Assembly: GCA_021731405.1 (NCBI GenBank)
Contig: JAKFXN010000005.1
Span: forward strand, 105,892-169,891
Direction of reading: 5' to 3'
Length of the DNA stretch: 64,000 nt
Origin: Candidatus Parcubacteria bacterium
GTDB taxonomy: Bacteria; Patescibacteriota; Minisyncoccia; Phycocordibacterales; UBA918
Positions 5,602 through 50,594 of the stretch are shown piece by piece. Under the pieces are notes generated by a model, which made no database searches, had not been told where the DNA came from, and was given only the letters and a program-made list of their open reading frames with translations. Within the stretch, counting starts at the first letter, position 1. Each line of letters begins with the position of its first letter. Both the position numbers and the translations under genes were made by a program.

Positions 5602-5643
5602 ACCCGATGGCTTTATTGTACACGAAGCTGTTCAAAAAATTGG

Positions 5644-10489: not shown

Positions 10490-10492
10490 AGG

Positions 10493-11527: not shown

Positions 11528-11582
11528 CATGTTGTAAGTATAGCAAAACAAGCATTCTCTAATCTTCACTGTACACAGACAA

Positions 11583-14497: not shown

Positions 14498-15455
14498 CCT
14501 GTCGGCGAGAAAGACGTCTGTTGTAAATGAAATACAGAACGAGGATCAAAAGTGCAAAGATTGGCAGCAAGATTGAGATCTTATGCGGGACCGAGAGTCC
14601 ACTAAAGCCAAAGCCTGCTTGTTGTAGTGTGCCGTACGGAAGAATACTGAGACTAACTTCCCCTTCTTGCTTAACTTCATCGCCATTATAAATACTGTAC
14701 CGCGCAATATAGTTTCCGGCTGGAAGACGAGTTGGAATCTCAGCCAGTACTTCTTCAGTTGCGTAAGGAGCAATCTCAGTTATACGTCCCTTATGATCTG
14801 TTTCTTCAAGGAGAACATTTCCAGCGAAGTCAAAGATTCTAAATGCAACACGTGAAGGTGAAATATCTACGTTACCAGTGTTTTCGATTAACATAGTGAA
14901 ATTAATCTTTCCAGGGAAATACAACCAACCAAGTTTCTTTCCTTCATTCAAATCAGAAAGTCCAATTTTACGTACTCGAAAATCTTTTATTTCTCTATCA
15001 ATAACAGTGAGACCTATATCAACCTGCGCACCAAGTGAAATACTCACCGCACCAGCAGCTACTTGATCATCATCAGGTACAGTCTTGATTCTAATGACAC
15101 CTTTATAGTCTTTGAATTCAGCGTCATCAGGAACCGTTACTCGGACAGTCATTGGTACTTTCTGTACGCCTCGTGGCAATGGCACAGACTCTCCTTCTAC
15201 AATCTGGATCCAGTCCATGATTTCGGGAGCGTCCACGCTAATTTGGGCCTTCTGGGGCACATCAGGATTACCGCGCACCAACAAAATCTGTTGTTCGTAA
15301 GTGGAGTTTCGAGTCAGGCTCGTATTGCGTACATATGGTGGCGTAATACCAAAACCCGCTCGCACTATCTCAGTTGAGAGCACAAAAAAAAGCAGGCAGA
15401 TGGAAATAACCTTCTTCATATAAACAATATCGAGTACATCTCTTGCACTCTCCAA
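14490..15455 (-). CDS. DUF916-like cell-surface protein with an N-terminal signal, Ig-like ectodomain and a C-terminal TM plus basic tail (ends ...LVLYFIYNRRLSRRQVG).
   Basis: N-terminal GFGITPPYVRN...ILLVRGNPDVPQKAQISVD resembles the start of DUF916 proteins from lactobacillus/enterococcus WxL loci, recalled from memory. The C-terminus has LPYGTL then a hydrophobic stretch and an RR tail. Paralog of 51829-52974. Confidence 0.5.
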   Translation of the reverse strand: MESARDVLDIVYMKKVISICLLFFVLSTEIVRAGFGITPPYVRNTSLTRNSTYEQQILLVRGNPDVPQKAQISVDAPEIMDWIQIVEGESVPLPRGVQKVPMTVRVTVPDDAEFKDYKGVIRIKTVPDDDQVAAGAVSISLGAQVDIGLTVIDREIKDFRVRKIGLSDLNEGKKLGWLYFPGKINFTMLIENTGNVDISPSRVAFRIFDFAGNVLLEETDHKGRITEIAPYATEEVLAEIPTRLPAGNYIARYSIYNGDEVKQEGEVSLSILPYGTLQQAGFGFSGLSVPHKISILLPIFALLILVLYFIYNRRLSRRQVG

Positions 15456-15542: not shown

Positions 15543-17405
15543 CTACCAGTCTGTACTACTTGAGGTCACGGCGTAGAAGGTGTTTAGCCCTGTGTAGGCA
15601 CCAGCTACAGTAATCGCGATCGGTACTTCAATTCCCCAGTACGTTACACCTGAGTTAGGTGATGAGGTGGCTGTGGTCTTTGGTACTTTGAGCTCGAGGA
15701 GCTGTTGTGTTGTAGAAGAAAGATTGTATCCACTTCCGTACGCAACAGAACTTGTTCCGAACTCTTGTTGGTAATCTGGAATAGTTGAAGAAGCACTGTT
15801 TGCACATGGACTTCCCACCGCAAATCCTGGACACATCGCCTCACCTTCAAGTTCTTGGTTGAGCCCGGTGTTACCTACCGAGAGAACAGTTGTCGTTGCG
15901 TCGAGCGTTCCGGTGTTGTCTCCTGGTTCGAGTGATCCATATGGAATTTCTCCTGTAATCAAGTCAATGGCTGGGAAACTAAGGAGAGTCACTGGACTTG
16001 AGCCAACTGTTCTTGTTCCAGTAGCGTTGTTGTCATCGATACCAGCAATTGCTGCTACCCAATCATCGGCAGCAAATGGAGAGATAACGTCTGTTGGTTC
16101 AGCAACGAACCAGAGTGGGAATGTGCAAGACCAAAGTTGAGTTGGGTCTGATGGTCCACCACAACTAGTGGTAGATGCTGTACATGAGAGGTTCCAGACG
16201 TTGCTTGGGGCTCCACTTGGATAACAGTTGTTTGGATTGTATGAGCCGGCAAGACCAGAACAAGTTGATGTTCCAATACTACTTCGGTAAAGAGAGACTA
16301 CATATCCGACCATCTCGTCACCTCCAAGAGCATTTTCGCAACTGTTGGCATCGGAAGTTTCAAAGGCGAGTGGGAAGTTTAGAGTTTCTCCCGCTTCTAC
16401 CGTGAGTGAGATGTTTAATCCTCCGTTGACTGAGATACTTCCCGCAGCCACTGTTGGCGCTACGTTGCTTACCACAAAGCCATCATTTTCACCTTGAGAT
16501 CCACCTACTGCTGTGTGTCCATGGTTGTCTACAATGAAGCCGTAAGCATCAAAAGTATCATCTTGGATAACGCTTGGAAGAGTGAATGCCGCTGTAGCGT
16601 TTGCAGTTACTGGAACAGTAGTGGTAGCGATAGTTCCGCCGATACCACAACTTGCTGTTGTTGTACTGTAGTCGTTTGCATTACAGACATGCAGTGTAAG
16701 CACGTCTTCTCCACCAACAACGTCAGGGTCAGTTGAAGTTGAGAAGAAGGTTACAACGGCTCCAGGGTTAGCTGGTGAGTTGTTGTAGAAAGATGTAAAG
16801 CTTGGTCTGAAGTTTACATGGAAAGGAGAAGAGTTAGTTGCATTAGTACCTTGAGAACTTACGTCATTACAACGTGGGTTCACAGGATCGTCGTCACATA
16901 CCCAACCATACCAGTTGTTGCTTTCAGCAAACGGTGCGACTTCTGATGTTGTGGTTGCGACCCGGGCTTGCGCAAGAGCAGCTGTGGCGGTAGAGACTCC
17001 CCACTGCACTCCACCCACACACTCTGGCGGCTCAGTACCGAGCGTACCGAGACTGGCTGCAGCGTTTGGCGTCGGTGTAGCACTGCCACTACAGATAATC
17101 AAGAAATACGGCGCATTTCCAGAGTTGTCAGCCCGAGCTGTCCACGAGACTTGTCTTCCTGAGTTAGTCGGTGTGCTGGTTGAAGATTCAAACTCTTCTA
17201 CAGCAAAATCAATCCAAATCGGAGGAGTGTTGAGTACGGTCAGTGTCGTAGTTGCGGTCTGTGCTTCTACTTTTAGGAGCTCTGTTTTTCCTGCGTTAAA
17301 GAGGAACACGAAGGCAAAAATGAGCACTCCAGAAACAGCAGCCGCAATGGTGATTTTGCCTGCAGTTTCTAGGTAATTAAATTTCTCTACTTTGTTGTAC
17401 AACAT
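15543..17405 (-). CDS. Secreted 620-aa protein with an N-terminal signal anchor. It is a paralog of the C-terminal ~500 aa of the giant protein, including the shared YWGI(E/A)VP C-terminal domain.
   Basis: C-terminus SGVTYWGIEVPIAITVAGAYTGLNTFYAVTSSSTDW against the giant protein's TDVYWGIAVPFTASNAAHTGTNIFTAIGID. The upstream 100 aa also align (IPYGSLEPGDNTGTLDATTTVLSVGNTGLNQELEG against INYGALSGDSDTGSFNPTTTITNLGNTPINVDVEG). Confidence 0.65.
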   Translation of the reverse strand: MLYNKVEKFNYLETAGKITIAAAVSGVLIFAFVFLFNAGKTELLKVEAQTATTTLTVLNTPPIWIDFAVEEFESSTSTPTNSGRQVSWTARADNSGNAPYFLIICSGSATPTPNAAASLGTLGTEPPECVGGVQWGVSTATAALAQARVATTTSEVAPFAESNNWYGWVCDDDPVNPRCNDVSSQGTNATNSSPFHVNFRPSFTSFYNNSPANPGAVVTFFSTSTDPDVVGGEDVLTLHVCNANDYSTTTASCGIGGTIATTTVPVTANATAAFTLPSVIQDDTFDAYGFIVDNHGHTAVGGSQGENDGFVVSNVAPTVAAGSISVNGGLNISLTVEAGETLNFPLAFETSDANSCENALGGDEMVGYVVSLYRSSIGTSTCSGLAGSYNPNNCYPSGAPSNVWNLSCTASTTSCGGPSDPTQLWSCTFPLWFVAEPTDVISPFAADDWVAAIAGIDDNNATGTRTVGSSPVTLLSFPAIDLITGEIPYGSLEPGDNTGTLDATTTVLSVGNTGLNQELEGEAMCPGFAVGSPCANSASSTIPDYQQEFGTSSVAYGSGYNLSSTTQQLLELKVPKTTATSSPNSGVTYWGIEVPIAITVAGAYTGLNTFYAVTSSSTDW

Positions 17406-17510: not shown

Positions 17511-18719
17511 TTATTCATATCTAATCGCATCAAGTGGATTGAGGGTTGAAGCACGTCTGGCTGGGAAAACTCCTGTTAAGTACCCCACTCCAGCTGAGAA
17601 AAGAGCAATGAAGACCAAAAATACAATTGGGAAAGAGAAAAGTGAGACAGATTGTCCACCAAATTGACCCGCCACGATATTCAAAAATAGATTGACAGTA
17701 AGACCTAAGGCAACGCCCATCACAATTCCACTCACCCCACCCATAAAGCCCACCACAATAGACTCAGAAATAAAGAGGTTTTTTACGTCTTTTGGTGAAG
17801 CGCCAATTGTACGCATAATTCCAATTTCTTTTGTTCGTTCAAGGAGTGTAACTGTCATGGTATTAAACATACCAATAGCAGATACAATAAGTGCAATTCC
17901 GCCAAAGGTAGCCAGTACCGCTTGTACGCCTTGGAAAATCTTTGACGCCTGCTCCACAGTCTTTGAAAGTGCGGTTACTCGATAGCCAGCTTCAATAAGG
18001 CGAGCTTCAACAATCGGTAGATTTTCGTTTGAGTTCACACGAACTTGAATACGCTCATATTCTTCAATACCCACGTGATTGCGAAGCTCTGGAAGCATCA
18101 TCATGGCATTAAGAACACCTTCTTCTTTTGTAATACCACGTACGGTGTACTCTTTATCAATTGGAACCTCAACCACTGCGTCAGTCCCATCCTCAGCTGG
18201 TACAAGCAGTCTGAAAGATACTTTTTCGCCAACAAAAGACTCCGCTTCATCAATTCCGAAAAGCTTCAAAACAGCAGGGGAAAGCATTATGCTGTTTGTA
18301 TCACCAGCATCTTCATCAGTAAAAACAGTTCCTTCGGTTGCTGTTACTCCTGCATACCGTAGGTATGGAGGCTCAACACCTTGAATAAAGACGTTTCCGG
18401 TTAAACCTTTATAGGTAACGAGCGCAGGAAAGCGAGCCAATGGTGCAGCATCAAGAACCTCTTCATACTTTTTAAAAGTATCAACTGTTTCAACTGTGAG
18501 TTTGAGGTTTTGTGCACCTGTGGCAGAAACACCAAGTGAGAGAAGTGTCTCTCCAAACACAATCTGCTCAAGAATGATTTTTTGTAGACCAAAGCCGAGT
18601 CCAACCAGCACCACCACCGCTCCAGTTCCCACACCCATACCTAAAATCGTAAGCCACGTACGAAGTGGGTTAGTTTTAAACATTCGAGTTGAGAGTTGGG
18701 CTAGATCTTGAATTCGCAT
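17511..18719 (-). CDS. ABC transporter permease, FtsX/MacB-like, with an N-terminal TM, a large extracytoplasmic domain and a C-terminal 3-TM FtsX domain.
   Basis: 402 aa. N-terminal TM LRTWLTILGMGVGTGAVVVLVGLG, ~230-aa ectodomain, then C-terminal FtsX-like helices (ATFGGIALIVSAIGMFNTMTVTLLERTKEIGIMRTIGAS...). Immediately downstream of the ABC ATPase. Confidence 0.8.
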   Translation of the reverse strand: MRIQDLAQLSTRMFKTNPLRTWLTILGMGVGTGAVVVLVGLGFGLQKIILEQIVFGETLLSLGVSATGAQNLKLTVETVDTFKKYEEVLDAAPLARFPALVTYKGLTGNVFIQGVEPPYLRYAGVTATEGTVFTDEDAGDTNSIMLSPAVLKLFGIDEAESFVGEKVSFRLLVPAEDGTDAVVEVPIDKEYTVRGITKEEGVLNAMMMLPELRNHVGIEEYERIQVRVNSNENLPIVEARLIEAGYRVTALSKTVEQASKIFQGVQAVLATFGGIALIVSAIGMFNTMTVTLLERTKEIGIMRTIGASPKDVKNLFISESIVVGFMGGVSGIVMGVALGLTVNLFLNIVAGQFGGQSVSLFSFPIVFLVFIALFSAGVGYLTGVFPARRASTLNPLDAIRYE

Positions 18720-18797
18720 TAAATGAAATAATGAGCGTAGCGATTATATTGAATTTAGTTCCTAATTTTCTCCATTACTAGAGAAAATTACTGGAAC
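18719..18797. ncRNA. Conserved structured intergenic element, copy A (hairpin-motif family), lying between the ABC ATPase stop and the FtsX start codon.
   Basis: TTAAATGAAATAATGAGCGTAGCGATTATATTGAATTTAGTTCC-TAATTTTCTC-cattacta-GAGAAAATTA-CTGGAAC. The outer stem GTTCC/GGAAC and the 10-bp inner stem are shared with copy B, and the inner stem shows compensatory changes between copies. Confidence 0.5.
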
Positions 18798-18865
18798 GAC
18801 CCAACGCCCCTATTAAATGTAATTGTAACACTTCAAACTCTCAAAGAAACAAGTTTCCCCCGTAA

Positions 18866-20188
18866 CTAACTCTTGTAACTCACATCCACTCCTTGGGCGA
18901 TGATTTTTTCGAAGTAACGTGTAAGATCATCCGCTTCTTTTGGATCTAGTGCGAGTCCACCACCTTTTATACCAAGCATGAGACGTTCATTAAACTGCGC
19001 TTCCTCCACTACGCCAGTCACACGGTCGGCAATCATTTCAACCATGTTGTCATTTTGTTCTTTACTCAATTTCATATGGTAAGAACCCATTAGGTGGTCA
19101 CGTAACCGCTCAGCTAGTTTATGTTGGCTAAAAAAGATATCGTCGTTATCTTTTTTTGCTCTAAAACGCCTAATATCATCTGCTTGATGCATAAGTTTTT
19201 CGGCCACGTGTGCCATCCGCTTGGCTTCTTTTTCTTCAATCTCTACTCCACCTTGCTCAAGCTTGAGTACAAGCGCACGGATAAATGTGTCTTTGTCTAT
19301 TTTGCCTTTGATAAATAGGGCAATAGCATGCTCTAGGCGAATAATTTGGTCATAGGTGTACTCTTGGGTCAGGAAGTTAACCATACTCTTCACGCGAAGC
19401 GTATCAACTGAGTCGTAGGGATACAGACGAGCAAGTTGTTCAAGCTCAGTCACAATAGTCTCACCTTCGCGGACTGGTTTAATTTGTTTTCGCTGTGGGT
19501 TTACCACTTCTCGCACCACAAAGCCGTCTTTGAGATAATACACGCGGTGCGCATAGCTCAAGTGCGCAGCGTTATGAGACACCATAATAATGGTTCGTCT
19601 ATCAAACGTGTTAATTTCGTCAATCTTGTCCATTACCTGCTGCGTAGAAACCGAGTCGAGGTTTCCGGTTGGTTCATCTGCCAAGAGAATTTTTGGGTCG
19701 TTCACCATCGAACGAGCCACCGACACACGCTGCTGCTGTCCTCCAGAAAGCATGGCTGGGATTTTGTGAGATACATGCCCTACCCCAAAGCGATCAAGCA
19801 GTGACTGCGCACGACGTTCGCGTGTCACTCTATCAGCATCACAAAAAATCATTGGGAGCGCGACGTTGTCGAGTACTGAAAGGGAGCCAATCAGGTTGAA
19901 AGACTGAAAAATAATACCCATCACGTACCGTTGAAAATAAACACGTTCACTCGGTGGATATGAATAGATATCGTCTCCACGAATAAGGAGAGTGCCGTCT
20001 CCTGGGGGAAGCGAGCCCTGAATTGAATACATCAAAGTAGACTTTCCTGAACCTGAAGCACCGAAAAGAATGATGTACTCCCCTTCATAGATATCAGTAT
20101 TTACACCCTGAAGGGCTCTAAATTCATTAGATTTGCCTTTGTTGTAGATGATTGAAAGATCACGACAAACAATGAGTGGTTTCGCCAT
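18866..20188 (-). CDS. ABC transporter ATP-binding protein (MacB/LolD/FtsE-like NBD) with an unusual ~200-aa charged helical C-terminal extension.
   Basis: Walker [11 protein letters not shown]-loop, ABC signature LSGGQQQRV, Walker [14 protein letters not shown]-loop VSHN. The C-terminal part beyond the NBD is charged and helical (...[11 protein letters not shown]...[30 protein letters not shown]...) and has no match I recognise. Confidence 0.85.
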
Positions 20189-20248
20189 GTGTACATTATG
20201 CCATTAGTCTTACAATCTTTAGGCTTCTTCTATCCCCACTGCAGACAT

Positions 20249-21748
20249 CTATACTCCAATGTTCTTAACCCAACCGAAGGTACTCTGGAAGTTTTCAAGA
20301 ATGAGGTCAATAATGTTTTTTTCTTGAATCGGTGTAAAGAGCACAAAGTTTTCCGACTGTGTCTTATTCCCTGCTTCGTCTTCACAGTTGAGCCAGAACT
20401 GATACACCGTTGCTGGCGCAAAGTCGACCACCACTTCTACATGCTTAGTATTGTACTCCACTCGCTCTTTTTCACGCACTGTTGGTTCACTTCCCCCGGC
20501 CACACCTTCGCGATACGTCATCAAACAGTAGGCTGGTTCATCAGAGACCCATTCAATAATAGTTTGAATTCTTGATTCTCCTCCTGGGAATAGCGTTGAT
20601 TCATTAGTTACGTTTGAAATAATTGGCGGAGCAATATCCCGTACAGTAATAAACTGAATTGGCTGACTGCGTACGCGGTCTCCGCCCGAGTTTTCTGAAA
20701 TTACAAAGGCCACGTACCTAGTACCAAGCGTCAAGTCAGCTAAACGCATCTGGTGTGAAGTAGCAAGCGTTGGACGTCCAACTGAGTTTTGCGCACCGGT
20801 TGTTTGGTCTTGGAATTCAATCAAGGCCTTAGCTGGTACCGTAGTGTCCCAAGCAAGCGTAGCAGCATTTTCTTCCACCTTGAGCACCCGTAGATTTCGG
20901 ATTTCTGGTAAAGAGGCTTTGGTGAGGAAAGTGAAGTTTCTACTTTCACCAGTAATATTTAACCCATCAGTTGAAAGGACTTTGAAGCTATACTCAGTAT
21001 AGGGTTCAAGTCCAATGATACGAATTTCGTGATCTGTTGTTGGTCCACCGGTTGAAGCCTGTGAATAGGCATAATTTGTACCATCAAAACTGGCTGAGGG
21101 TGAAAATTGTACCTCTGAGGAAGCTTCGCGGTCAGTCGTCCAACGCACAAGCGCTGTGGTTGTCTCTGGTATAACGGTTGGTGGACCAATAATTGTCAAA
21201 TCGGTAGTAATACCTTGAATCGCTTCCACAACTTCAGTTAAGATTTCCTGCAGTTGCTGGGGGCTGGTGATTTGATTTATTTGTTCAATAATTTCTTCTA
21301 CGGTTGGCGTCGGCGTAGCCGATTGAGAAGTAGTTGAGTCAGATGATGATTGTCCTTGCCCAGGACCATCGCCAGTTTGTGGAGTACCACTCATTTGCAC
21401 CTTATAGTCTGCAGAAATACCTTGGTTGCCATCTTCATCAGCAGAAATCACCCGAAAGTAATAGACCCGTCCAGCTTCGAGATTCTCGAGAGTGATCGAG
21501 TGCACAGTTTTGTCAGGGACAGGAATACGAACAATGCCTAAGTCAGGCTGTAGACCATAGTTTACAACTGAGTCTGAATCTTTATCAGTTTCCCATGTCA
21601 CCGTAAGTGAATCTTCAGTCACGTTTTCAATCTGTACATTACTAATTTCAGGGGGGTCTGTTGATTGAGCAAAAGCTATCTGGGCAGCAATAACTACTCC
21701 GACAGTAAAGAGTAGCGAGAGTATTTTATAGGTAAGAACATTCCTCAT
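20249..21748 (-). CDS. Secreted protein with multiple fibronectin type III-like domains and a Pro/Thr/Gly/Ser linker. Lies immediately downstream of the giant gene.
   Basis: Signal peptide MRNVLTYKILSLLFTVGVVIAAQIAFAQS. FN3-like SNVQIENVTEDSLTVTWETDKD...RVYYFRVISADEDGNQG, repeated after the linker (LRVLKVEENAATLAWDT...). Confidence 0.65.
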   Translation of the reverse strand: MRNVLTYKILSLLFTVGVVIAAQIAFAQSTDPPEISNVQIENVTEDSLTVTWETDKDSDSVVNYGLQPDLGIVRIPVPDKTVHSITLENLEAGRVYYFRVISADEDGNQGISADYKVQMSGTPQTGDGPGQGQSSSDSTTSQSATPTPTVEEIIEQINQITSPQQLQEILTEVVEAIQGITTDLTIIGPPTVIPETTTALVRWTTDREASSEVQFSPSASFDGTNYAYSQASTGGPTTDHEIRIIGLEPYTEYSFKVLSTDGLNITGESRNFTFLTKASLPEIRNLRVLKVEENAATLAWDTTVPAKALIEFQDQTTGAQNSVGRPTLATSHQMRLADLTLGTRYVAFVISENSGGDRVRSQPIQFITVRDIAPPIISNVTNESTLFPGGESRIQTIIEWVSDEPAYCLMTYREGVAGGSEPTVREKERVEYNTKHVEVVVDFAPATVYQFWLNCEDEAGNKTQSENFVLFTPIQEKNIIDLILENFQSTFGWVKNIGV

Positions 21749-21768: not shown

Positions 21769-24700
21769 CTAATCAATACCGATAGCAGTAAAGATGTTGG
21801 TACCCGTGTGTGCGGCGTTACTAGCTGTAAACGGAACCGCGATACCCCAATACACATCAGTCTCTACTGGAGGAGTCACAACACTTGGCTTGCTGAGGTT
21901 AAGTCCAAGTACAACGGCACTACTTGATGAGAGCTGCTGGCAAGTAACACAGGCGTTGTAGGTGAAAGTTGAGGTAGCAACTTTCTGTTGATCAGCTGGA
22001 ATAGCTGAAGATTCACCGTCAGTTAGATCAGTTCCTTCAACATCAACGTTGATTGGTGTGTTGCCGAGGTTTGTGATGGTGGTAGTTGGGTTAAACGAAC
22101 CAGTGTCAGAGTCTCCTGAGAGAGCGCCGTAATTTATGACAGAATCCACTGCCATCGCTCTTAGAGTAATGAGTTCTACTCCAATAGCGGAGGCAAAATC
22201 ATAGCCTTCACTAGAATCTTCTGCCTCAGCGTAAGCTTCCCAAGTTTGTCCTAAATATGGCTCCTCGTCTGTTGCATCCGCATGGAAGAAGATATCAACT
22301 TCACAAGACAGATCACAACTGTTTCCAACACAGTTAGTGAGCGTACATTGACCATTTTCAGTTGTAGCTACGTAACAGTTGTTGTTATCTGGTGTACAAG
22401 TAGGACCAGCCCCACTGCGGTAAATAGTAGCTGTCGCATGAATGATGTCAGAAGCACCATTGAAGTCAGTGACAATACCCGAAACAGTAACTGGCGTAGT
22501 TGTACCTGGAGTAAGATTTATATCTCCTCCACCATTAAGTGTAACTGCACCAAAGGTTGGGTCAAATTGAAGTCCTAGTTCAGCAATTTTAGCGTAAAAG
22601 TCCAGTGGAGTTCCATCGTTTGTGACTCTGAAGCAGTAGTCATCTGAAGCATTACTTGTTGGGGTCAGTACATACTCGAGTTCAGTGTAGAAGTCTTGAT
22701 CTAAGTCAGTCGCAGCTGTTTGACTCGAAGGACTCTCAACAATTGAACCCTCACTAAATGTTCCTTCTGTACCAGTGAGTAAATCAGTAGCAGGGTCGCC
22801 ATTTGTGACAAAAGTAGAGGCTTGCATACAAACAGGAGAACTGCCACAAGATGCTTGGTTTGGCACAGTAGCATATGAAGCACTGTTGACAGACTCACAA
22901 GTAGGGGCTGCTCCCTTAGCAGCAAACTCAAGTCGGTACTGTTGAGCAGTCACATCGAGACCTGAGTTTTCAACCGCCAACCTTAGACGAACAATGTCAC
23001 CTGGGATAGCTGTTGTAATTCCATCTAAACTAGAGGCCCAACTTGCACCACCATCGGTCTGCTTTGCACCAAGGAAAACAGTTGGAGTAGTAGCTATTCG
23101 GGCCCGTGAGGTAAAGCTGTCCCAAGCTCCGTTCTGGAACCAGAAGGCATATCCAAATCCGCCAGAAGTGTAGTTGGCGTCAGTGGCAGAAGTAGTCGCA
23201 ATGAGGGTGCCGGCACTATTAAAGAGTGATACTTCCATTAAGTCACTTGTCTGCCAGTCAATTTCTACTTCATACCAACCAGTTGTGTATGTGACTGTAG
23301 TGGTGGCAAGTACAACTCCCGAAGTATCATTATTGTCTACATCTCGAGCGAGAGAAATTCTATCTACCCCGAACTGCTCAAGACAAACGCCGTAATTTTG
23401 GTTTGTTGTTCCTGGCGACTGCACTCCAAAAAGTGTACAAGGTTCATCTCCACTACCACCCGAAGTGTTTACATATTGCATGTAGCGAATTATTTCACCT
23501 TGAGTCACCGGATCATCAAAGCGGAAAATACCGTCCGTCGTCTTTCCGCTTGGATTTGAAGGTGCAAGCGACCGCGCTCCGCCATAGACTGGAGTTGTAA
23601 CAGTGGTAAAGAGACTGGTGTCTCCTGAATACTCAGAGATAGAAGCGTCTTCATAATCATCAAATGCATTCATGGTACTTGTTCCACTACTTTGTGACAC
23701 AGCTGTAGAGCTTCCATAATACATAAACACCGTTGCATAATCGCTTGCTGGCAATGTTGGGACTCGCACCCAAATCTGTGCGTCGGTACTGGCAGTGTAC
23801 CTTTCTATCCAGAACGGAATTTGTGTTTGCCCGTTATCGCTCGTGAAGCGAATATCTTCAAAGTCTGATTGCATTGAACTATCGTACGGAACAATCACCT
23901 TAACGGCGGTTGAAGCATATGCTTGGTTGTCGTTATTAAGTACTCGCACTCGTGTCCGATAATCAAAGCTGCTATTAAACCACTCTGTAGATGGTGCACC
24001 TTCTCCACCATCATCATTTCGCCAGCGAACGTGTGTTTGTTCGGTGAGGAGACAAGAGCTGTTATCAAATCGGATTGAGCCACAAGCATCAATGCCATCA
24101 ATGTCGAATCCTTCTCCGCCAATATTTCCATAGTTGTTGGTAAAGCGCCACGCGTTTGCAGTCTCGCCAGTGAGATTTATGTTATAGCCCGTAAGTGGCC
24201 CTGTGGCATTAAAACCTACGGCGTCAAATGTTTTTGAAGGATTGGCGTTGAGGGTGGTTGAAGAAAGTGTGACCGCAGAACCAGAAGCCACGGCGATATC
24301 GAAGTATCCGTTCGATAGTTCATCAATAGTAGACAGACCACTTAACTGAAGACCAAACACATTCATATCACCAAACTCATAATAATTGGCATTGAGAGTT
24401 CCTCCGGTCACGGCAAAGTTATATGTTCCACTACCTTGATTTTGCATGATAGTTGAACTTCCAGATGTTCCTACAATCTGAAGCGAGCCAGTAGTGACCG
24501 TCGTAGTTGCATTTGGCGCAAACGAGACCGTTACTTTTCGTTGATTACTGCCACTGAGTACCGTTCCGTCAAAGTCGTTACTGTAATTCCAGTACTCAGT
24601 AGTGGTGGCGATTTGTAGATCTCCGTACACATATAGCGCCCCGTTAGTGTTTGCGTGGTCTTGTGAGTACAACGAACCAGAAAGCGCAACGGTTGTAGTA

Positions 24701-27700
24701 GCAGCACTACTGTACCAACTTCGAATGTCAGTGTTGGCATCGATACTGATAGTACCGTACACGTCTCCACTGTTTGAGCGGGTATTAATACTGTAACCAG
24801 ACTGACTGATTAGTCTGAGAGTTGTGTTTGTCCAAGTAGTACCCGCTCCACCAACTGAGTTTGTGAACACACCTCCGACCGTGATGACCGCTGTAGGATT
24901 TACGGTAAGAATATTCGCACTGGCAATAGTGAGGTTGTTTGTCGTAGTGGCACTAAAGAGTGTATACCCACCACTTGGTGCACCAAACTGAAGGTTATAG
25001 AACGGGCTAGTGCCAGGATTTACTGTAAGACCGGCTGAAGCAGAATTGAGGAGGACTGTTCCACTTGCACTGGCAAATGTACCGCCTGTTGCTACAAATG
25101 AACCTCCGACTGCAGTTGTACTTGCTCCAAGGGCGACACTGCCACTGGCAATAGTAAATGAATCCAAGAACGTAATGTTTGCGTCAGTAATGGTGAAAGC
25201 TGCTGGTCCAACAAATCGAACTGCGTACAAATCTGAAGAACTAGCGGTCAAAACAGCGGTACTGGTTGCTGTCATGATAAGGTCGGAAGTATTGTGCGTC
25301 ACGGTACCGGAACGTTTCTCGAAGCTGCCTCCAATAGCAAAGTTTCCGCTTGGAAGCGTCACGGTACTACCAGTAATCAAAACTGAACCAGTACTGGTGG
25401 CGTTTGTATCACTCATTGTGAACGAGCCACTGTTTGTGAATCGGAGGGAAGACACAACTGAATTGTTGAAACGAACAGTATTACCGCCAGAGGTACTTGT
25501 GAAGACAAATGGGCTACCGCCATTGGTAAATGAACCAGAGGTGACATTAAATGATGCGCCAATGGTTGTCGTACCTGACCCAAATGTAACTGCACCATTT
25601 GATTGTGTGTAAGAGCCACCAAGTGTGAGCGTAGCGTCAGTCACCACGTAACTGCCCGATCCAGAAACAGTAAGGTTGTGTAATGCTGCACTATTTACAT
25701 CAAAGGTTCTACTGGCACCAGTTGTAGTGAGGGTTAGAGTTGAACTGGCACCTACAAACTCCGCTCCTGTACCAAAGATGACACTACCGCCGATGCTATG
25801 AGCTTCAGTTGTTTTTGCTCTAAATCGAGCGTTTGTCTGAGCTTCAAGTGTTCCATCATACGCCGCTCCAGCACCAGCACCAGCAAGGGTTACGTTTCCG
25901 TTTGGTTCAAATGTTTTTCCTGTCCAAATGAGAAGCTTCGTGTCAGCTGGTAGTGTGAGGGTGTCGGTACCTGTTGTTGTGGCAGTGAAATTAATATCTG
26001 AATCAAAACTAGAGTCCCACACAGCCATATTTGCAATGGTAATCGGATCAGTGTTTTCATGACGCACCACCACTCGATTGTGATACAGATGCATGTTACT
26101 GATTGAAGAAATTGGCGCCACACTCACTGTTGTTGCTTTTGGTGTCTCACCATTAATGAAGAGTGTCAGTGTATCAAGTGGACTAAAAGCAACTCCACTA
26201 ATACTGTAGGCACCTGTACCTGCGTTACAACTTGTGTTGTATGTCGTAAGACCGGCCACCACCAGACGAATATTATTGGTAGAACCGTCACAAACGGTTG
26301 ATACCGTAACTCCTTCATCACTGTATACGTTTCCTGCCACGGTAATAAGCGCAGCTGAGTCGTCCCATACCACATAGCCAGGGTCGCCTGCTGGATCATC
26401 ATCAAAGGCTTCTCCACTTATGTTTCCAAGGTGGTTTGTAAAGCGCCATGAACTTATTGTTGTACCAGTTGCAGTTACGTTTTTAGCACCCGTTACTCCG
26501 CCACCAGCTTCAAACTTGTTGTTAGTGAAGTTCTTTGCTTCGTTTGCATTTATAACAGTGCCCCCTACCGTAATTGCGCTACCACTGTTGATACCAACCA
26601 AATGATCAGTTCGAGAAAAATCAGTGACTGTTGGCGCACCAGCAAACACAACTCCGTTACTATTAGTATCGCGAACTTGAACCGTGTCAAACTGAACTGT
26701 CGACCCTGTACCGAAAGTGATTCCATAGGTACCACTTCCTTGATTTTGAATCGTTGTGGTAGCTGAAGGTGTCCCCACAGCTACAATTGAACCGCCTGCC
26801 CACAAAGCACTAGCACCGCTGGCGAAGTATATTTCCGCCTGACGTTCACTACCGCCAGTGAGGTTAGTACCATCGAAGTCTGTGGAGTAACTCCAGTAAT
26901 CATTTCCGGTGGTTCGTACCAGCTGACCCCAGATATACGCGTCACCATTTACTCCTGCATGGTCTTGAGAGTAGAGCGAACCTGTTGCGTTTACCGCATA
27001 AGAAGAAGCGCTAGAATTCCACATTCGAATTTGTGTGCCGGCCGCAATAGCGAGGTTGTTATAGACATCGTTTGTAGTTGAAGCATTAATTGAGTATGTT
27101 CCCGAACCAGTGAGGAGAAGAGTTGAAGTTCCCCAGTTTGTTGCGGCTCCACCAAGTGTGTTGGTGAATTGTCCACCAACAGAAAGCGTTTGTCCATTGT
27201 TTACGTTAAACGCACTATGATTTGTGAGTGTAAAGGCGTTGGTCGCAGTTGCATGTGAGTTGAGAGAAAACGTTCCTGTTCCATCTATAACTACATTACT
27301 AAAGCTTGAAGAACCGGCATTTATGAGCGAAGTGGTTGAGCCGGTAAAACGAACTGTTCCACTATTGCCAACAAAAGTACCGAGATTGGTGTAATCTCCG
27401 AGAATAGTTAGATTGGCACTATTGCTTGCTTGTAGTGTGCCATTATTCTGAATAACTACGTCGCCACGCACTTCTACCACGGGATCGCTTGTATTGGCGG
27501 TAAAAGTTGATGTGGCACTACCACCAATGATAAGGTCGTTGTACACAAGAATTCCAGAGCCTGTACCAGTGTATGTTGCGGAGCCAGCGCCAGCATTGAG
27601 TACAAGGTTGTAGTAGTTGATGGACGGCACATTAGCTGTAGCGCCACTAAACCGCAGAGTACTGGTGTCCTCAAGGAACGTTCCAGTTCGCACAAGCACG

Positions 27701-30700
27701 TTACCAGTACCTGACAAATCAAAGACAGCATTCCCTGCATCGAGGAAGTGAGCGTTTGCAATGGTGAGGGTTCCTGAGACAGTAGTAGTTGCAGCAGAAG
27801 CTGGGGTCGTTGTCCCGACCACAGAACCATTTCCTAAGATAAGGTTACTAAACGTCCAAGCAGAGGTACCGCCAAGAGTATTGGTACGATTAATGGTTGT
27901 GGTACCAGAACCAAGAGAAAGTATACCGTTACCATACAGAGATCCGTTTTGAATGGTTATGTTATTGGTACCAGTGACCGTTCCTGAAGCGATGTTCATA
28001 TCAGCCACAACAGAGATTGGGGCAGTGATATTCCAGCCGCCTCCAGTTCCTGCAAACTGCAGTTGATTGAAGGTTACGAGATTTGGACTAGTAATGCTCT
28101 TTCCCGTTGTTGTGGCGTTAAAGATAAAGGTTGATGAAGCAGATGTGAAAGTTGACGTAGTTGCCATTACAAACCGTCCTGCAAGTGTATGGGTCTGTGT
28201 ACCTGACGCAGTGAAGGTAGCGTTCGCACCAATCTGCAGCGTCCCTTCGTAACTATTAGCATTTCCGTTTCCTGTAAGCGTAACATTTCCGCCTGGAGCG
28301 AACGTAGAACTAGCAAATACAAAGAGTTCAGTGTTTGCAAGAACTGTAAGCGTGCCAGTAGCTGCCACAAAACGCAGATCAGTATCATTATCAAAGTCAT
28401 ATGACTGCAAATCAGCAATTGTTAGCGGGGAGACGTCTTGGTGTCTTGTAATTACCCGGTTTGCATAAATGTGCATGTTGGTAATATTCCCTGTTGGAGT
28501 CTTGGTAATAACGCTTCCTTGGACACCACCATTAGTATCAAGGTAGACGACTACTTTTGGATCACCTGTATATGCAACAGCCGGGAAAGAGTAGGCACCT
28601 GTCGTACCATTACAACTTGTCGAAGAAGCGTAAGTTCCACCATCTACAACCACTCGCACATTTTGTGTCGATCCATCACAGGTTGGTCCGCCAAGCGTAG
28701 TTAGTCCGGCATCAGCATACACAACACCCGAAATAGTAACGGTGTTCGAACTATCGTCGAAACGGATCGAACCTGGGTTACTGTCATTATTATCAAATGC
28801 TTCGCCATAAAGACCACCAGTTCCTTCACGAAACCAAATGAATGAACTTGGCGATCCTTGGAGAGTAATGTTTGAGGCAGCCCCTGGACTAGTAGTAGCA
28901 AAACCAACCCGATAATACTGAACGGTTGGATTCGTATCTATGGTTGATGCATCTACAGTAATACCAGTTCGTGACGGAGCAACAGTGAATAGTCCATCCC
29001 TGAAGACTGAAAGTGTTGAGGACGCTTTGAGGCCAAAACCCTCAGCATTTGTACCCGCAACTCTAAAGTGTTCGGCGGTAACGGTGGTATTTGTCGCATT
29101 GAGACTAAATGTTCCCGACAGTGCGTCGATGGTCGTTGATGCACTCGCTATACCTACGAGATTCAAAGAAGCATTTGTAAGACCAATCTGACTACTAGTG
29201 GCAATGCGAACATCTACTTGACGGCTGGTACTAGCAATCAAGGCCGTGCCATCGAAGTCAGTGCCATAACTCCAATACTCAGTTCCTGTTGAACGAATAT
29301 AGTTACCAAAAATGTATAGGTCTCCATCTACAGCTGCGTGGTCCTGAGAATATATTGCTCCTGCCGCTCCGCTCGTGACGTAACTTGTGGCACTTGAGTT
29401 CCACATTTTTGCAAGTGTGCTACTGGCTGCTTCAAGTGTTCCGTACACATCTCCACCATGTGTCTTAGCATTCATGTTTGTGGTGGTAGCACTCAAGAGT
29501 CTCAAGGTTGATCCAGTCCAAGTGGTGTTGGTACCACTCACTGCATTAGTGAAAGTTCCTTGTGTCGCCAGAACTCGTCCGCTTGAGAGCGTAAACTGCG
29601 AAACGTTAGTTAGATTAACAGCCACCGTCGCCGTAGCATTTTCAGTGATAGTAAAGTCCCCTGTTACGCTATCAAATGTCACCGTTGCAAACGAAGAATC
29701 CCCAGCATCAATAGTCTCAGAACCAGCAGTTGAGTTGAAACGAACGGTTCCATTATTAGCATTAAACTGAGCGTTGTTTGTAAACGAGCCTCCTACTGAC
29801 AAAGTACCAGTATTAAATGTACTATCGCCACCAGTATCAAGAATAAGATTTCCTAACACCGTCGCATTTGTGTCGGCAAAGGTGCGAGTGAACTGGGCTT
29901 CGCTTGCACTGACTGCATAAAACTGAGTCGTGCTAGCCATGTTATTAAACGAAGTAGTCAACCAACCTTGGGTTCGTGCTGTATTTGAAATCCGCACCTC
30001 GTCTAAAAGGCCGTTATAGAAGCGACCGCCAGCACTATCTTGACCGAAGTTGAGGGCGTTAATGAGTGAATTACCATGAGTAGTGACGTTCACTCCTGAA
30101 GTAATACCACTTGTTGCATGTACGTACGCAGTGGCTTGGTTAGGAAGCACAACCAACGACGCCATAAACCATGTATTGCGAGGATAGACTGGTCCACCGT
30201 TCCAGTTGTAGGTAGCGGCCGCGTCGTTCCAATGATATCCGATACGATTGGCCGTATTATCGATATTAATACCTGAAGTTTGCCCGCCTCGAGAGAAGAG
30301 AACTCCGTCATACGCCCCCTGATTGCCGTCTGTCCTCATCCAGAGCGACCAAGTTGAGGTAGCAAGTGTACGATTCATATTTGTACCGATGTACTCATTA
30401 GTACCATCGAGATCAGCACCACGACCTACTTGCGCAGCTTGTTGGTCTCCAGTCTCCATGTTAAAGGCAGTACCGGTAGTTGAACCTGTGCTGTCGATAT
30501 ATTGTGGAGCACCGAGAGATGGATCTTGATCCATGTGATAAACCGCTACGTATCCATTTGACCACACATTGTTTCGACCATAGGTAGCTGTGGTAGCGTA
30601 CGCTGTAGCACTCGGATTTCCATGATACACATAAAAAGTTGTATCGGTAGTTGAGTCAAGAGCGGCACGGAAATGGATTTCACCAGTCTTTGCAACGGTA

Positions 30701-47058: not shown

Positions 47059-47125
47059 CTTATCTATAAGTATACCCCGCACAAATACAAACAATATGTC
47101 TGGTCGTGAACAACTTGTAACTCTT

Positions 47126-49722: not shown

Positions 49723-49760
49723 ATATATGTATATTGTACCGCAAAGCTGCAGCGAAACCT

Positions 49761-50579: not shown

Positions 50580-50594
50580 ACCAATAAGTATACG

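What the first reader, a model, noticed from the sequence alone, without database searches (positions are those of the whole stretch)
21769..22150. Shared C-terminal YWGI(A/E)VP domain on the giant protein and the 620-aa protein 15543-17405 (second copy at 15543-15900), a candidate sorting or anchoring module
Both proteins end with a ~120-aa homologous region terminating in (V/T)YWGI(A/E)VPxxx(S/T)xAxxTG(T/L)NxFxA and then stop. They have no C-terminal TM and no LPXTG. A conserved extreme C-terminal domain on otherwise different-sized secreted proteins is how C-terminal sorting domains such as T9SS CTDs and PEP-CTERM first show up, so this may be a new cell-surface retention or secretion signal.
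Basis: seen in the sequence. Interest (0 to 1): 0.6.

Follow-up and report, generated by a model that had tools for sequence, protein, structure and literature searches.

The report
Shared C-terminal docking module, CPR surface proteins
The giant protein and the 620-aa protein really do end in the same domain, a roughly 260-residue, previously unannotated two-part beta-sandwich module. It caps thousands of Patescibacteria (CPR) surface proteins and is encoded next to a membrane-anchored partner resembling the one that holds WxL proteins on Gram-positive cells, so it most likely docks proteins on the cell surface rather than acting as a secretion signal.

Summary
It spans about 260 aa (30% identity, E 1e-17) and forms two beta-sandwich domains. 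The YWGI(A/E)VP...GxNxF motif makes up the last two strands.

The module has no Pfam, NCBIfam or PDB-sequence match. A profile search finds up to about 2,700 clusters at 50% identity, from proteins labelled Patescibacteria wherever a source names them. The host proteins range from 263 to 7,696 aa. In 142 of the 150 best hits the module ends within 15 aa of the C-terminus. Stand-alone proteins made of a signal peptide plus the module also exist. A few proteins carry the module internally or with an insertion.

Gene order is conserved: large module protein, sometimes FN3 protein + ABC ATPase + MacB permease, then a small or A-like module protein, then a p321 homolog (window 14490..15455). p321 has a signal peptide, two beta-sandwiches and a C-terminal TM helix. 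It is homologous to a window protein that passes Pfam WxLIP_PGBD, and its model's best PDB matches are E. faecium WxLIP structures.

This mirrors Firmicutes WxL clusters (small WxL + large WxL + WxLIP) and resembles CPR Pam pili. I read the module as a surface docking or assembly domain held by p321. It does not look like a cleaved sorting signal. The mechanism is inferred, not shown.

The parts
21769..42672 (-). Giant surface protein, 6967 aa. It has an N-terminal TM or signal segment, a conserved juxtamembrane segment, a Pro/Glu-rich acidic spacer, DUF2341, Laminin_G_3 and Ig domains, and the C-terminal module.
21772..22566 (-). C-terminal module of the giant, about 265 aa. D1 is a beta-sandwich with four conserved Cys. 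D2 is a beta-sandwich (about 21772..22188) whose last two strands are VYWGIAVP and NIFTAI.
   Evidence: AF2 model with pLDDT 90.5 and residues 45-310 >=92 in every 10-residue block; conservation
15543..17405 (-). Protein A, 620 aa. It has an N-terminal hydrophobic segment with a conserved V-x-A|Q site, two N-terminal Ig-like regions and the C-terminal module. The family has a constant length of about 610-630 aa and 843 homologs.
15546..16475 (-). C-terminal module of protein A, with D2 at about 15546..15998.
14490..15419 (-). p321, the WxLIP-like partner. It has a signal peptide, two beta-sandwich domains, a C-terminal TM helix and a basic tail. Its homologs directly follow the small or A-like module gene in 37 of 114 genome loci.
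17511..18719 (-). MacB/FtsX-type ABC permease (MacB_PCD + FtsX domains). It is present in type-1 clusters between the large and the small module genes.
18866..20188 (-). ABC ATPase of 440 aa (LolD/FtsE/MacB/DarD-like) with a C-terminal extension.
20249..21748 (-). Secreted protein of 499 aa with FN3 / purple-acid-phosphatase-N domains. A homolog follows the large module gene within 700 nt in 42 of 78 loci that have enough downstream sequence.
13367..14497 (-). Dockerin-bearing protein of 376 aa (DUF4215, Big_6, Dockerin_1). It is conserved downstream of p321.
11651..12799 (-). Pam-pilin-like protein of 382 aa, with a sub-threshold hit to NCBIfam CPR_Pam_pilin_C. It is a paralog of 53041..54132.
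8762..11569 (-). Two conserved downstream genes. One encodes a 358-aa protein with a signal peptide and a C-terminal TM. The other encodes a 575-aa cohesin/Big_13 protein.
51829..52974 (-). p381, a paralog of p321 that passes the Pfam WxLIP_PGBD gathering score. Its C-terminus is hydrophobic. It links p321 to the WxLIP family.

Best explanation
The shared region is a self-folding extracellular module of about 260 aa, made of two beta-sandwich domains. I propose it works as a cell-surface docking and assembly domain. Proteins that carry it are exported by an N-terminal Sec-type signal. They include the 6967-aa putative adhesin, the 620-aa protein A and, in other genomes, small proteins consisting of signal peptide plus module. 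The C-terminal module is the last part to emerge from the membrane. There it would be captured by p321, a membrane-anchored tandem-Ig protein encoded immediately downstream. By analogy with WxLIP-WxL and PapD-type chaperone-pilin pairs, capture would involve a beta-strand from p321 pairing with the second domain of the module. This would hold the lectin-like and Ig-like passenger domains on the cell surface. What is shown: the homology, the predicted fold, the C-terminal position, the breadth of the family, the conserved gene order, and the homology and fold similarity of p321 to WxLIP. What is inferred: the physical module-p321 contact, strand complementation, and retention as the outcome.
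For: 1) The module is confidently predicted as tandem beta-sandwiches (pLDDT 90.5). It has invariant Cys, Trp and Gly-Asn positions across giant-type, A-type and stand-alone members. 2) It sits at the extreme C-terminus in 142 of 150 representatives and in all but two of the module ORFs in 114 genome loci. Host proteins range from 263 to 7,696 aa, and 56 of 79 putatively complete ones have an N-terminal hydrophobic segment. 3) The passengers are binding-type domains (DUF2341, Laminin_G_3, Ice_binding, Kelch, F5/8-C, BNR). None of the Pfam families detected in them is catalytic. So the variable part looks like the functional part and the constant part like the attachment. 4) Gene order is conserved: large module gene, optionally FN3 + ABC + MacB, small or A-like module gene, then p321. 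Of 33 complete small or A-like module genes with at least 1 kb of downstream sequence, 24 are followed by a p321 homolog within 700 nt. The same holds for stand-alone P0057. 5) The p321 model shows a signal helix, two beta-sandwiches and a C-terminal helix containing the TM segment. hhalign against the window's p381 gives 97.3% probability, E 2.5e-11, and hmmsearch gives E 1.4e-10. p381 passes Pfam WxLIP_PGBD (29.6 bits against a cut-off of 27.3). The best Foldseek PDB matches of the p321 model are 'WxLIP from E. faecium bound to long WxL' (9i25_C, E 1.9e-10) and 9i1y, followed by RbmA and chaperone-usher chaperones. 6) Published WxL clusters have the same layout: a small WxL protein that is only the domain, a large WxL protein with the domain always C-terminal, and a TM-anchored WxLIP. 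AF2 predicts a WxLIP strand completing the WxL sandwich (PMC9772566, PMC10599100). 7) A-family N-termini keep a (V/A)-x-A|Q site in 94 of 119 members. Stand-alone members have AxA-type sites. This fits cleaved signals that leave no N-terminal anchor.
Against: No direct evidence of a module-p321 contact exists. No multimer prediction or covariation analysis was possible. The module matches neither Pfam WxL nor NCBIfam CPR_Pam_pilin_C, even weakly. It has one W-x-I motif rather than two WxL motifs. Foldseek finds only generic tandem-Ig matches for it. The giant has its own N-terminal TM-like segment followed by a conserved juxtamembrane segment and a Pro/Glu-rich spacer. That looks like an N-terminal anchor with a wall-spanning linker and would place the module at the distal tip. 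The A-family cleavage site lies unusually far, about 12 residues, after the hydrophobic core. The Foldseek hits for p321 have low TM-scores (0.32-0.38) and the model is of moderate quality (pLDDT 75.8). p321 itself passes no Pfam threshold. Some module genes have no p321 nearby, for example P0060 in L006. Two representatives have domains after the module.
Confidence: 0.45

Rival explanations
1. The module is a pilin-like polymerisation unit, analogous to Pam or chaperone-usher pili. In this view p321 is a membrane-anchored chaperone or terminator like PamC, PamD or PamR. The small or A-like module proteins are fibre or adaptor subunits joined by donor-strand exchange. The giant protein is the tip adhesin, incorporated through its C-terminal module as FimH is through its pilin domain.
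For: CPR Pam pili use two-domain Ig-like pilins with paired cysteines, Sec signals, TM-anchored PapD-like chaperones and an RbmA-like TM anchor (10.64898/2026.03.03.709456). The p321 model also matches RbmA (E 2e-9) and the chaperones DraB, CfaA, FimC, PapD and Caf1M (about 1e-7). The module has two domains, four conserved Cys and a conserved inter-domain linker, GVExxTLxAxxV. Large and small module genes lie in tandem. The cluster also contains a Pam-pilin-like gene, 11651..12799. A CfaB-CfaB pilin fusion is among the Foldseek hits for the module.
Against: The module gives no hit to CPR_Pam_pilin_C. hhalign against the window's Pam-like protein gives 0.6% probability. The 8-kb loci examined showed at most two module genes each, and often no small one, which suits a major pilin poorly. 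The AF2 monomer model gives no indication of a missing strand that I could assess. The TM-score to CfaB is only 0.34.
Confidence: 0.2
2. The module is the distal, ligand-binding tip of N-terminally anchored fibrillar adhesins. The giant and A are held in the membrane by their N-terminal helices, and the shared C-terminal module binds a common ligand on the host cell or substrate.
For: The giant has an N-terminal TM-like helix, a conserved juxtamembrane segment and a long acidic Pro/Glu spacer typical of a wall-spanning region. The hydrophobic core of A's N-terminus is about 19 residues long, which is TM-like. D1 carries conserved Asp/Asn motifs (TDxNG, ADxTD) that could bind Ca2+.
Against: A host-binding tip would be expected to vary more than the rest of the protein. 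Here the module is the constant element and the lectin-like passengers vary. Stand-alone modules follow directly after cleavable-looking signals. This model does not explain the tight linkage to a partner anchored in the cell's own membrane.
Confidence: 0.15
3. The module is a true export or sorting signal recognised by dedicated machinery, for example the adjacent MacB-type ABC transporter, and is removed or processed after transport.
For: The position is nearly always C-terminal on diverse cargo. A MacB-type ABC transporter and an FN3 protein lie between the two module genes in type-1 clusters.
Against: Type-2 clusters have no ABC genes, nor do the contexts of P0057 and P0060. The module is 260 aa, folded and probably disulfide-bonded. 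Stand-alone forms carry no cargo. Internal or insertion-bearing variants exist. No peptidase or sortase recurs in the clusters. There are no hits to T9SS, PEP-CTERM or other sorting-signal models.
Confidence: 0.07
4. The module has no dedicated role. It would be a common structural Ig-tandem spread by domain shuffling among CPR surface proteins, and its C-terminal position and synteny would reflect shared ancestry of one gene cluster.
For: Foldseek finds only generic tandem-Ig similarity. Many hits are orthologs of the same giant or A genes in the same conserved cluster.
Against: The N-terminal architectures are very diverse. The terminal position is kept in about 95% of representatives. Invariant residues are maintained at about 25-30% identity. 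The p321 adjacency recurs in both cluster types.
Confidence: 0.08

Closest known systems
WxL / WxLIP cell-surface clusters of Firmicutes (CscA-D; Lwp/Swp/Duf of Enterococcus; Pfam PF13731, PF06030, PF11797)
   Same: The cluster layout matches. A small protein is only signal plus domain, a large protein carries the domain at its extreme C-terminus behind adhesin-like beta-rich passengers, and a protein of about 320-380 aa has a signal, two Ig-like domains and a C-terminal TM (PMC9772566, PMC10599100). p321 is a remote homolog of a protein that matches WxLIP_PGBD, and its model's best PDB matches are WxLIP structures.
   Different: The module is not a WxL domain by any test run here. There is no PF13731 hit, even at E<=10, in 52 members. 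The 52-row alignment has two conserved Trp, W154 in D1 and W285 in D2. They lie in different domains and only W285 sits in a W-x-I context, so there is one such motif rather than two WxL motifs. The module has two domains and about 260 aa against one domain of about 180 aa or fewer. The lineage is Patescibacteria, whereas more than 91% of WxL sequences are in Firmicutes. p321 lacks the NQIDKxxxYFDLK motif. Many clusters also carry a MacB-type ABC transporter, an FN3 protein and cohesin/dockerin proteins.
Pam pili of CPR bacteria (PamA/B/E/T pilins, TM-anchored chaperones PamC/D, anchor PamR; bioRxiv 10.64898/2026.03.03.709456; NCBIfam NF058581)
   Same: Both are CPR-specific. Both involve Sec-exported two-domain Ig-like subunits with paired cysteines and two-Ig partners carrying a C-terminal TM. 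The p321 model also matches RbmA and PapD-type chaperones. The window holds two Pam-pilin-like genes, one inside this cluster.
   Different: The module does not match CPR_Pam_pilin_C or the window's Pam-like protein. It is appended to passengers of up to 7,400 aa. The organism names in the matching records are mostly Paceibacteria/Parcubacteria, though many loci are labelled 'uncultured Candidatus Saccharibacteria'. The Pam paper reports Pam pilins mainly in Saccharimonadia and Microgenomatia. No filament evidence exists for the module.
Two-domain chaperone-usher adhesins (FimH, PapG: N-terminal lectin domain + C-terminal pilin domain)
   Same: A variable N-terminal binding part is joined to a conserved C-terminal Ig-like domain that integrates the protein into a surface structure through a two-Ig chaperone-like partner.
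   Different: Patescibacteria are generally regarded as having no outer membrane (my own knowledge, not tested here), and no usher homolog turned up in the Pfam scans of the neighbouring genes. The partner is membrane-anchored. The similarity is only a generic fold resemblance.
T9SS C-terminal domain, PEP-CTERM and LPXTG sorting signals
   Same: A conserved element at the extreme C-terminus of otherwise unrelated secreted proteins.
   Different: There are no model hits. There is no TM or basic tail and no LPXTG. The module is about three times larger than a T9SS CTD. No processing enzyme co-occurs with it. The window's sortase (59157..59825) is next to a different protein.

Membership tests
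WxL domain (Pfam PF13731) | Match to the family model | tested here: not met
   No PF13731 hit for the two window modules at E<=5, for 50 diverse members at E<=1e-4 or for 52 members at E<=10. A module profile against PDB sequences, which include the 'long WxL' complex 9i25, finds nothing relevant at E<=10.
WxL domain (Pfam PF13731) | Two conserved Trp-x-Leu motifs on adjacent strands of one domain | tested here: not met
   The 52-row alignment has two conserved Trp, W154 in D1 and W285 in D2. Only W285 sits in a W-x-I context (YWGI).
WxL domain (Pfam PF13731) | Domain always at the extreme C-terminus of Sec-exported proteins, in small (domain-only) and large forms | tested here: met
   142 of 150 representatives and all but two of the module ORFs in 114 loci end with the module. 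Stand-alone forms of 300-370 aa and large forms up to 7,696 aa both exist.
WxL domain (Pfam PF13731) | [quoted passage not shown] | tested here: met
   The large gene, small or A-like gene and p321 are arranged this way in the window and in 37 of 114 loci. 24 of 33 small genes that could be assessed are followed by p321.
WxL domain (Pfam PF13731) | Non-covalent binding to peptidoglycan | not testable with these tools
   This needs binding assays.
WxLIP (DUF916/PF06030 + DUF3324/PF11797 + TM), asked of p321 | Signal peptide, two Ig-like domains of about 148 and 112 aa, and a C-terminal TM helix, in a protein of 320-380 aa | tested here: met
   The AF2 model shows a helix at 2-14, sandwiches at 19-135 and 143-256, and a helix at 260-304. 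Family members are 300-384 aa.
WxLIP (DUF916/PF06030 + DUF3324/PF11797 + TM), asked of p321 | Match to PF06030 / PF11797 above the gathering score | tested here: inconclusive
   p321 itself has no hit. One of 27 family members hits PF11797 at E 0.006. The paralog p381 passes PF06030 (29.6 against 27.3 bits) and aligns to the p321 family at 97.3% probability, E 2.5e-11. hmmsearch gives E 1.4e-10.
WxLIP (DUF916/PF06030 + DUF3324/PF11797 + TM), asked of p321 | Fold similarity to solved WxLIP | tested here: met
   The top three Foldseek PDB hits are 9i25_C and 9i1y_A/B (E 2-3e-10, probability 1.00). TM-scores are only 0.31-0.38.
WxLIP (DUF916/PF06030 + DUF3324/PF11797 + TM), asked of p321 | Conserved N-terminal NQIDKxxxYFDLK motif (PMC10599100) | tested here: not met
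   The p321 family consensus at that position is AGFGISPPxxxxxxLxPGSxYEQxIxLVR.
Pam pilus pilin (NCBIfam NF058581 CPR_Pam_pilin_C) | Match to the family model | tested here: not met
   No hit for the giant or A modules at E<=1 or for stand-alone P0058 and P0279 at E<=0.1. hhalign of the module against the window's Pam-like protein gives 0.6% probability.
Pam pilus pilin (NCBIfam NF058581 CPR_Pam_pilin_C) | N-terminal beta-sandwich + linker donor strand + truncated Ig-like C-terminal domain that accepts a strand | tested here: inconclusive
   Two beta-sandwich domains and a conserved linker are predicted. Whether D2 is incomplete cannot be judged from the secondary-structure string.
Pam pilus pilin (NCBIfam NF058581 CPR_Pam_pilin_C) | Assembles into filaments | not testable with these tools
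   This needs cryo-EM or cryo-ET.
T9SS C-terminal domain | Match to CTD models; single Ig-like domain of about 80-100 aa; organism with an outer membrane and PorU/PorV | tested here: not met
   No Pfam or NCBIfam hit. The module has two domains and about 260 aa. The organism names in the matching records are Patescibacteria, a group generally regarded as lacking an outer membrane (my own knowledge). Its envelope was not examined here.
LPXTG / PEP-CTERM type signals | Short motif followed by a hydrophobic helix and a basic tail at the C-terminus | tested here: not met
   The C-termini are ...NIFTAIGID* and ...FYAVTSSSTDW*.

The most novel reading that the evidence does not exclude
The cluster encodes a minimal three-link tether built by beta-strand complementation, specific to Patescibacteria. 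In this reading, membrane-anchored p321 donates a strand to the module of the small or A-type protein. That protein in turn donates a strand to the module of the giant adhesin. A 7,000-residue adhesin would then be hung on the cell through two copies of one previously undescribed domain. The MacB-type ABC transporter would supply mechanical work for assembly or release. This would be an evolutionary bridge between Firmicutes WxL/WxLIP complexes and chaperone-assisted Pam-type pili.
Probability: 0.2. Interest if true: 0.75.

Novelty: new variant of a known kind. Interest (0 to 1): 0.6.

Why it matters
Patescibacteria make up a large share of bacterial diversity and appear to live attached to host cells. 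How their giant surface proteins are held on the cell is unknown. The literature found here only says they may be adhesins (PMC11809585). This analysis defines an unannotated domain family, bounded above at about 2,700 clusters at 50% identity. It is the one constant element of many such proteins, and it is linked to a specific membrane-anchored partner that resembles WxLIP. That gives a concrete, testable attachment mechanism: module-p321 binding. It also gives a handle for cataloguing CPR surface proteins by their tail, and suggests that WxL-type complexes, or something convergent with them, exist far outside Firmicutes. It remains a bioinformatic inference about a familiar type of system, so it is interesting rather than startling.

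Tried and rejected
- Pfam and NCBIfam scans of the module found nothing relevant at permissive thresholds. The only entries were noise-level, such as DUF2604 at E 0.087-0.22 for the giant's tail and Tad at E 0.0027 in 7 of 52 members.
- Searching PDB sequences with module and p321 profiles found nothing relevant.
- Foldseek of the two-domain module model against PDB gave only generic tandem-Ig hits such as Fab and scFv fragments, integrin alpha and a CfaB fusion, with TM-scores <=0.35.
I replaced it with a degenerate DNA pattern for YWGxx[VIM]P-x9-GxNxF. Per-genome copy numbers were therefore not obtained.
- I checked whether p321 might be a third diverged copy of the module. It is not: it is a distinct family.
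- I checked whether the MacB ABC transporter is an obligatory partner. It is not: type-2 clusters and the loci of P0057 and P0060 lack it.
- Homology between the module and the window's Pam-like pilin was rejected.
It was redone with closer homologs and gave only moderate confidence.
- Literature searches found no paper linking WxL or this tail to Patescibacteria.
Full report
**The observation**

All genes discussed are on the minus strand. The giant ORF 21769..42672 (6967 aa) and ORF 15543..17405 (protein A, 620 aa) are real open reading frames. They end in ...DVYWGIAVPFTASNAAHTGTNIFTAIGID* and ...VTYWGIEVPIAITVAGAYTGLNTFYAVTSSSTDW*. Neither has a C-terminal hydrophobic helix or an LPXTG motif.

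BLASTP aligns A residues 361-613 with the giant's last 230 residues at 30% identity, E 1e-17. phmmer gives E 1.6e-15. The similarity continues upstream to a shared (V/F)xN/DxxPT start. The common unit is therefore about 260 aa, not about 120. An HMM built from the family finds exactly these two copies in the six-frame translation of the window.

**What the module looks like**

I made an AlphaFold2 model of the giant's last 310 aa from a 52-sequence alignment. It has mean pLDDT 90.5, and every 10-residue block from residue 45 to 310 averages 92 or more. It shows two beta-sandwich domains.
- D1 spans about residues 48-171. It carries four conserved Cys (C109 invariant; C119, C124 and C133 in at least 90% of rows) and conserved TDxNG and ADxTD motifs.
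- D2 spans about residues 175-310.

Pfam and NCBIfam give no credible hit at permissive thresholds. PDB sequences give none. Foldseek against the PDB returns only generic tandem-Ig matches with TM-scores <=0.35.

**How widespread the module is, and where it sits**

The giant's tail retrieves 60 proteins. Where a source names them, the name is Patescibacteria, Parcubacteria or Saccharibacteria. In 58 of them the match ends 0-8 residues from the C-terminus. The other two, P0017 and P0053, are truncated or frameshifted before the tail motif.

Most are contig-truncated giant fragments. P0054-P0060 are complete small proteins. In several of them a Sec-type signal peptide with an AxA site is followed directly by the module.

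Protein A belongs to a family of 843 detected homologs. The 120 listed are 556-634 aa long, most of them about 610-630 aa.

A profile search of 1.84 billion representatives gives 2,723 clusters at E<=1e-3 and 1,166 at E<=1e-30. This is an upper bound, because the profile also covers a giant-specific upstream region.
- Among the best 150, 142 have the module ending within 15 aa of the C-terminus. Host proteins range from 263 to 7,696 aa.
- 56 of 79 putatively complete proteins of 250-1,700 aa have a strong N-terminal hydrophobic segment, and their N-terminal regions are highly diverse.
- The Pfam domains found in 50 diverse passengers are DUF2341, Laminin_G_3, Ig_Rha78A_N, Ice_binding, Kelch/beta-propeller, F5/8-type-C and BNR. 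All are binding-type, and none of the families detected is catalytic.

There are exceptions.
- P0273 has the module right after the signal, followed by about 345 further residues. I take these for DUF2341/LamG-like from their sequence, without scanning P0273 on its own.
- In P0275 the module is followed by what looks by eye like a Kelch-type propeller.
- P0272 and P0323 carry an insertion of about 350 aa inside D2.
- P0298 and P0312 carry an insertion between D1 and D2.

So a free C-terminus right after the module is strongly preferred but not obligatory.

**Genomic context**

Loci around A orthologs keep the window's gene order. The order is: giant (DUF2341), FN3 protein of about 500 aa, ABC ATPase (440 aa), MacB/FtsX permease (402 aa), A, a protein of about 320 aa, a dockerin protein, a protein of about 382 aa, a protein of about 350 aa, and a cohesin/Big_13 protein (Pfam).

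I then scanned one genome per GTDB species with a DNA pattern encoding YWGxx[VIM]P-x9-GxNxF.
- 114 of them carry the module, and the module ORF stops 1-9 residues after it in all but two.
- Most of the displayed records carry Patescibacteria-lineage names, and a few carry other phylum labels.

Annotating the neighbours with the window's proteins shows two cluster types.
- Type 1: large module gene > FN3 > ABC > MacB > A-like module gene (about 560-640 aa) > p321 homolog > dockerin protein and further genes.
- Type 2: large module gene > small (310-370 aa, signal plus module only) or A-like module gene > p321 homolog > dockerin protein and further genes.

Three counts summarise this.
- p321 homologs directly follow the small or A-like module gene in 37 loci.
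- Of 33 complete small or A-like module genes with at least 1 kb of downstream sequence, 24 are followed by p321 within 700 nt.
- Of 78 large module genes that could be assessed, 42 are followed by the FN3 gene and 14 by another module gene.

The stand-alone P0057 also has a p321 homolog 700 nt downstream. The most divergent hit, P0060, does not.

**What p321 is**

p321 lies at 14490..15455, with a probable start at 15419. It is not a diverged copy of the module. It has a signal peptide (MKKVISICLLFFVLSTEIVRA|G), about 270 extracellular residues, a C-terminal TM helix and a basic tail. At least 1,500 homologs are detected, and the 120 best share 72-95% identity with it.

Its AF2 model is of moderate quality (pLDDT 75.8). 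It shows a signal helix, two beta-sandwiches (19-135 and 143-256) and a long C-terminal helix.

p321 itself passes no Pfam model. Three results link it to WxLIP all the same.
- Its family profile aligns to another window protein, p381 (51829..52974), at 97.3% probability, E 2.5e-11 over 216 columns. hmmsearch gives E 1.4e-10.
- p381 passes the gathering score of Pfam WxLIP_PGBD (PF06030), with 29.6 against 27.3 bits.
- The best Foldseek PDB matches of the p321 model are 'WxLIP from Enterococcus faecium locus A bound to long WxL' (9i25_C, E 1.9e-10) and free WxLIP (9i1y). V. cholerae RbmA and the chaperone-usher chaperones DraB, CfaA, FimC, PapD and Caf1M follow.

The TM-scores are low (about 0.3-0.4). 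This is ranking evidence, not a tight superposition.

**Comparison with known systems**

Two papers describe Firmicutes WxL clusters (Hassan & Williamson 2022, PMC9772566; Hassan et al. 2023, PMC10599100). According to them:
- The clusters always contain a small WxL protein whose mature form is only the domain.
- They also contain a large WxL protein with adhesin-like passengers and the WxL domain always C-terminal.
- The third component is a WxLIP of 320-380 aa, with DUF916, DUF3324 and a C-terminal TM helix.
- WxL is proposed to bind peptidoglycan.
- AF2 predicts that a WxLIP hairpin strand completes the WxL sandwich.

The Patescibacteria cluster described here has the same three-part layout and a homologous or at least structurally similar third component.

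A 2026 preprint describes CPR Pam pili (10.64898/2026.03.03.709456). These have Sec-exported two-domain Ig-like pilins with paired cysteines, assembled by donor-strand exchange. Their PapD-like chaperones PamC and PamD are TM-anchored, and an RbmA-like TM protein, PamR, acts as anchor. The window contains two paralogous proteins with sub-threshold hits to NCBIfam CPR_Pam_pilin_C. One is 11651..12799, inside this cluster. The other is 53041..54132, next to p381.

The module itself belongs to neither family by the tests available.
- It gives no WxL or Pam-pilin model hit.
- It has a single W-x-I motif rather than two WxL motifs.
- It has two domains rather than one.
- hhalign against the window's Pam-like protein gives 0.6% probability.

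**Most likely mechanism**

I commit to a docking and assembly role. The module is the constant C-terminal element. Through it, Sec-exported surface proteins would be captured by the membrane-anchored p321, probably by beta-strand pairing onto D2. The variable binding domains would then be displayed on the cell surface.

Further support comes from conserved signal-peptidase-like sites. The motif (V/A)-x-A|Q is present in 94 of 119 A orthologs, and stand-alone members have AxA sites. Cleavage there would leave the mature proteins without an N-terminal anchor.

The main counter-evidence concerns the giant. It has a TM-like N-terminus, a conserved juxtamembrane segment shared by giant orthologs, and a long Pro/Glu-rich spacer. 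That would suit N-terminal anchoring with the module at the distal tip.

I could not test the predicted contact. A pilus-like reading, with p321 as chaperone or terminator and the small proteins as subunits, is a close variant and is listed as the first rival. A cleaved secretion signal in the T9SS-CTD sense is unlikely for four reasons: the module's size and fold, the cargo-less stand-alone forms, the internal and insertion variants, and the lack of any recurrent processing enzyme. The ABC transporter is also absent from type-2 clusters.

**Verdict**

As far as Pfam (2025), NCBIfam (June 2026), the PDB and the searched literature show, the domain family is undescribed. The system it belongs to looks like a Patescibacteria variant of WxL/WxLIP-type or Pam-type surface complexes.

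Noticed in passing
window 53041..54132 (-) and 11651..12799 (-): These two paralogous secreted proteins (363 and 382 aa, 46% identity) give sub-threshold hits to NCBIfam CPR_Pam_pilin_C (27.4 and 24 bits against a cut-off of 55). They end in ...GYxVxxxPLQEAGxDYTxTLxYxATPxF. They may be distant Pam-type pilins. Relatives of the window's proteins are named Paceibacterota or Parcubacteria where named at all, whereas the Pam paper reports Pam pilins mainly in Saccharimonadia and Microgenomatia.
   Followed up: partly
window 51829..52974 (-): This 381-aa protein passes Pfam WxLIP_PGBD (PF06030) and has a hydrophobic C-terminus. It lies directly next to the Pam-pilin-like gene 53041..54132. It is a second 'secreted Ig protein + TM-anchored two-Ig partner' pair and is a paralog of p321.
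   Followed up: partly
window 17511..21748 (-): A MacB/FtsX-type ABC permease, a 440-aa ATPase with a C-terminal extension of about 200 aa, and a secreted FN3 protein sit between the two module genes. They do so here and in about half of the related loci, but are absent from type-2 clusters. Their role, whether assembly motor, extraction of signal anchors or something unrelated, is unexplained.
   Followed up: partly
window 41473..42672 (-), N-terminus of the giant; orthologs P0190, P0200, P0203, P0207-P0223: Giant orthologs share a conserved segment of about 50 aa right after the N-terminal TM-like helix (E-E/R-x-T-I-H-V-F-P...GW...L-x-Q-D-L-S...D-F...N-S-A). In the window's protein a Pro/Glu-rich acidic spacer of about 250 aa follows it.
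   Followed up: no
window 7297..8052, 8762..10489, 13367..14497, 42786..44360, 45148..47211 (-): Several cohesin-bearing and dockerin-bearing proteins flank the giant gene, and the downstream ones are syntenic in other genomes. This suggests a cohesin-dockerin-assembled surface complex in a Patescibacteria genome.
   Followed up: partly
window 59157..59825 and 59879..63790 (-): A sortase gene lies next to a 1303-aa protein with SpaA, SdrD_B and DUF642 domains. That protein ends in a hydrophobic stretch and an RRRDVA tail. The only LPxTG-like motifs (LPTTA, LPATG) lie about 500 aa upstream, so the sorting motif is not obvious.
   Followed up: no
window 48919..51410 (-): Three tandem paralogs of about 270 aa carry an FGE-sulfatase (SUMF1-like) domain. 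They lie downstream of an ABC exporter (47126..48892).
   Followed up: no
window 54452..55717 and 57567..58046 (-): A Y-family DNA polymerase (IMS/IMS_C/DUF4113) and an S24 LexA/UmuD-like peptidase lie near each other. Together they look like an SOS-type mutagenesis pair. A GH18 protein and a CAP-domain protein lie between or beside them.
   Followed up: no
window 1..5631 (-): A second very large ORF of at least 1877 aa runs off the start of the window. It gives only weak hits to the first about 45 positions of the module HMM, which represent a generic Ig-domain start.
   Followed up: no
P0272, P0323, P0298, P0312 (representative proteins): Whole domains, for example a repeat region of about 350 aa that looks by eye like a beta-propeller, are inserted inside D2 or between D1 and D2 of the module. 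The YWG...GxxxF strands stay at the very end. P0273 and P0275 instead carry extra domains after the module.
   Followed up: partly
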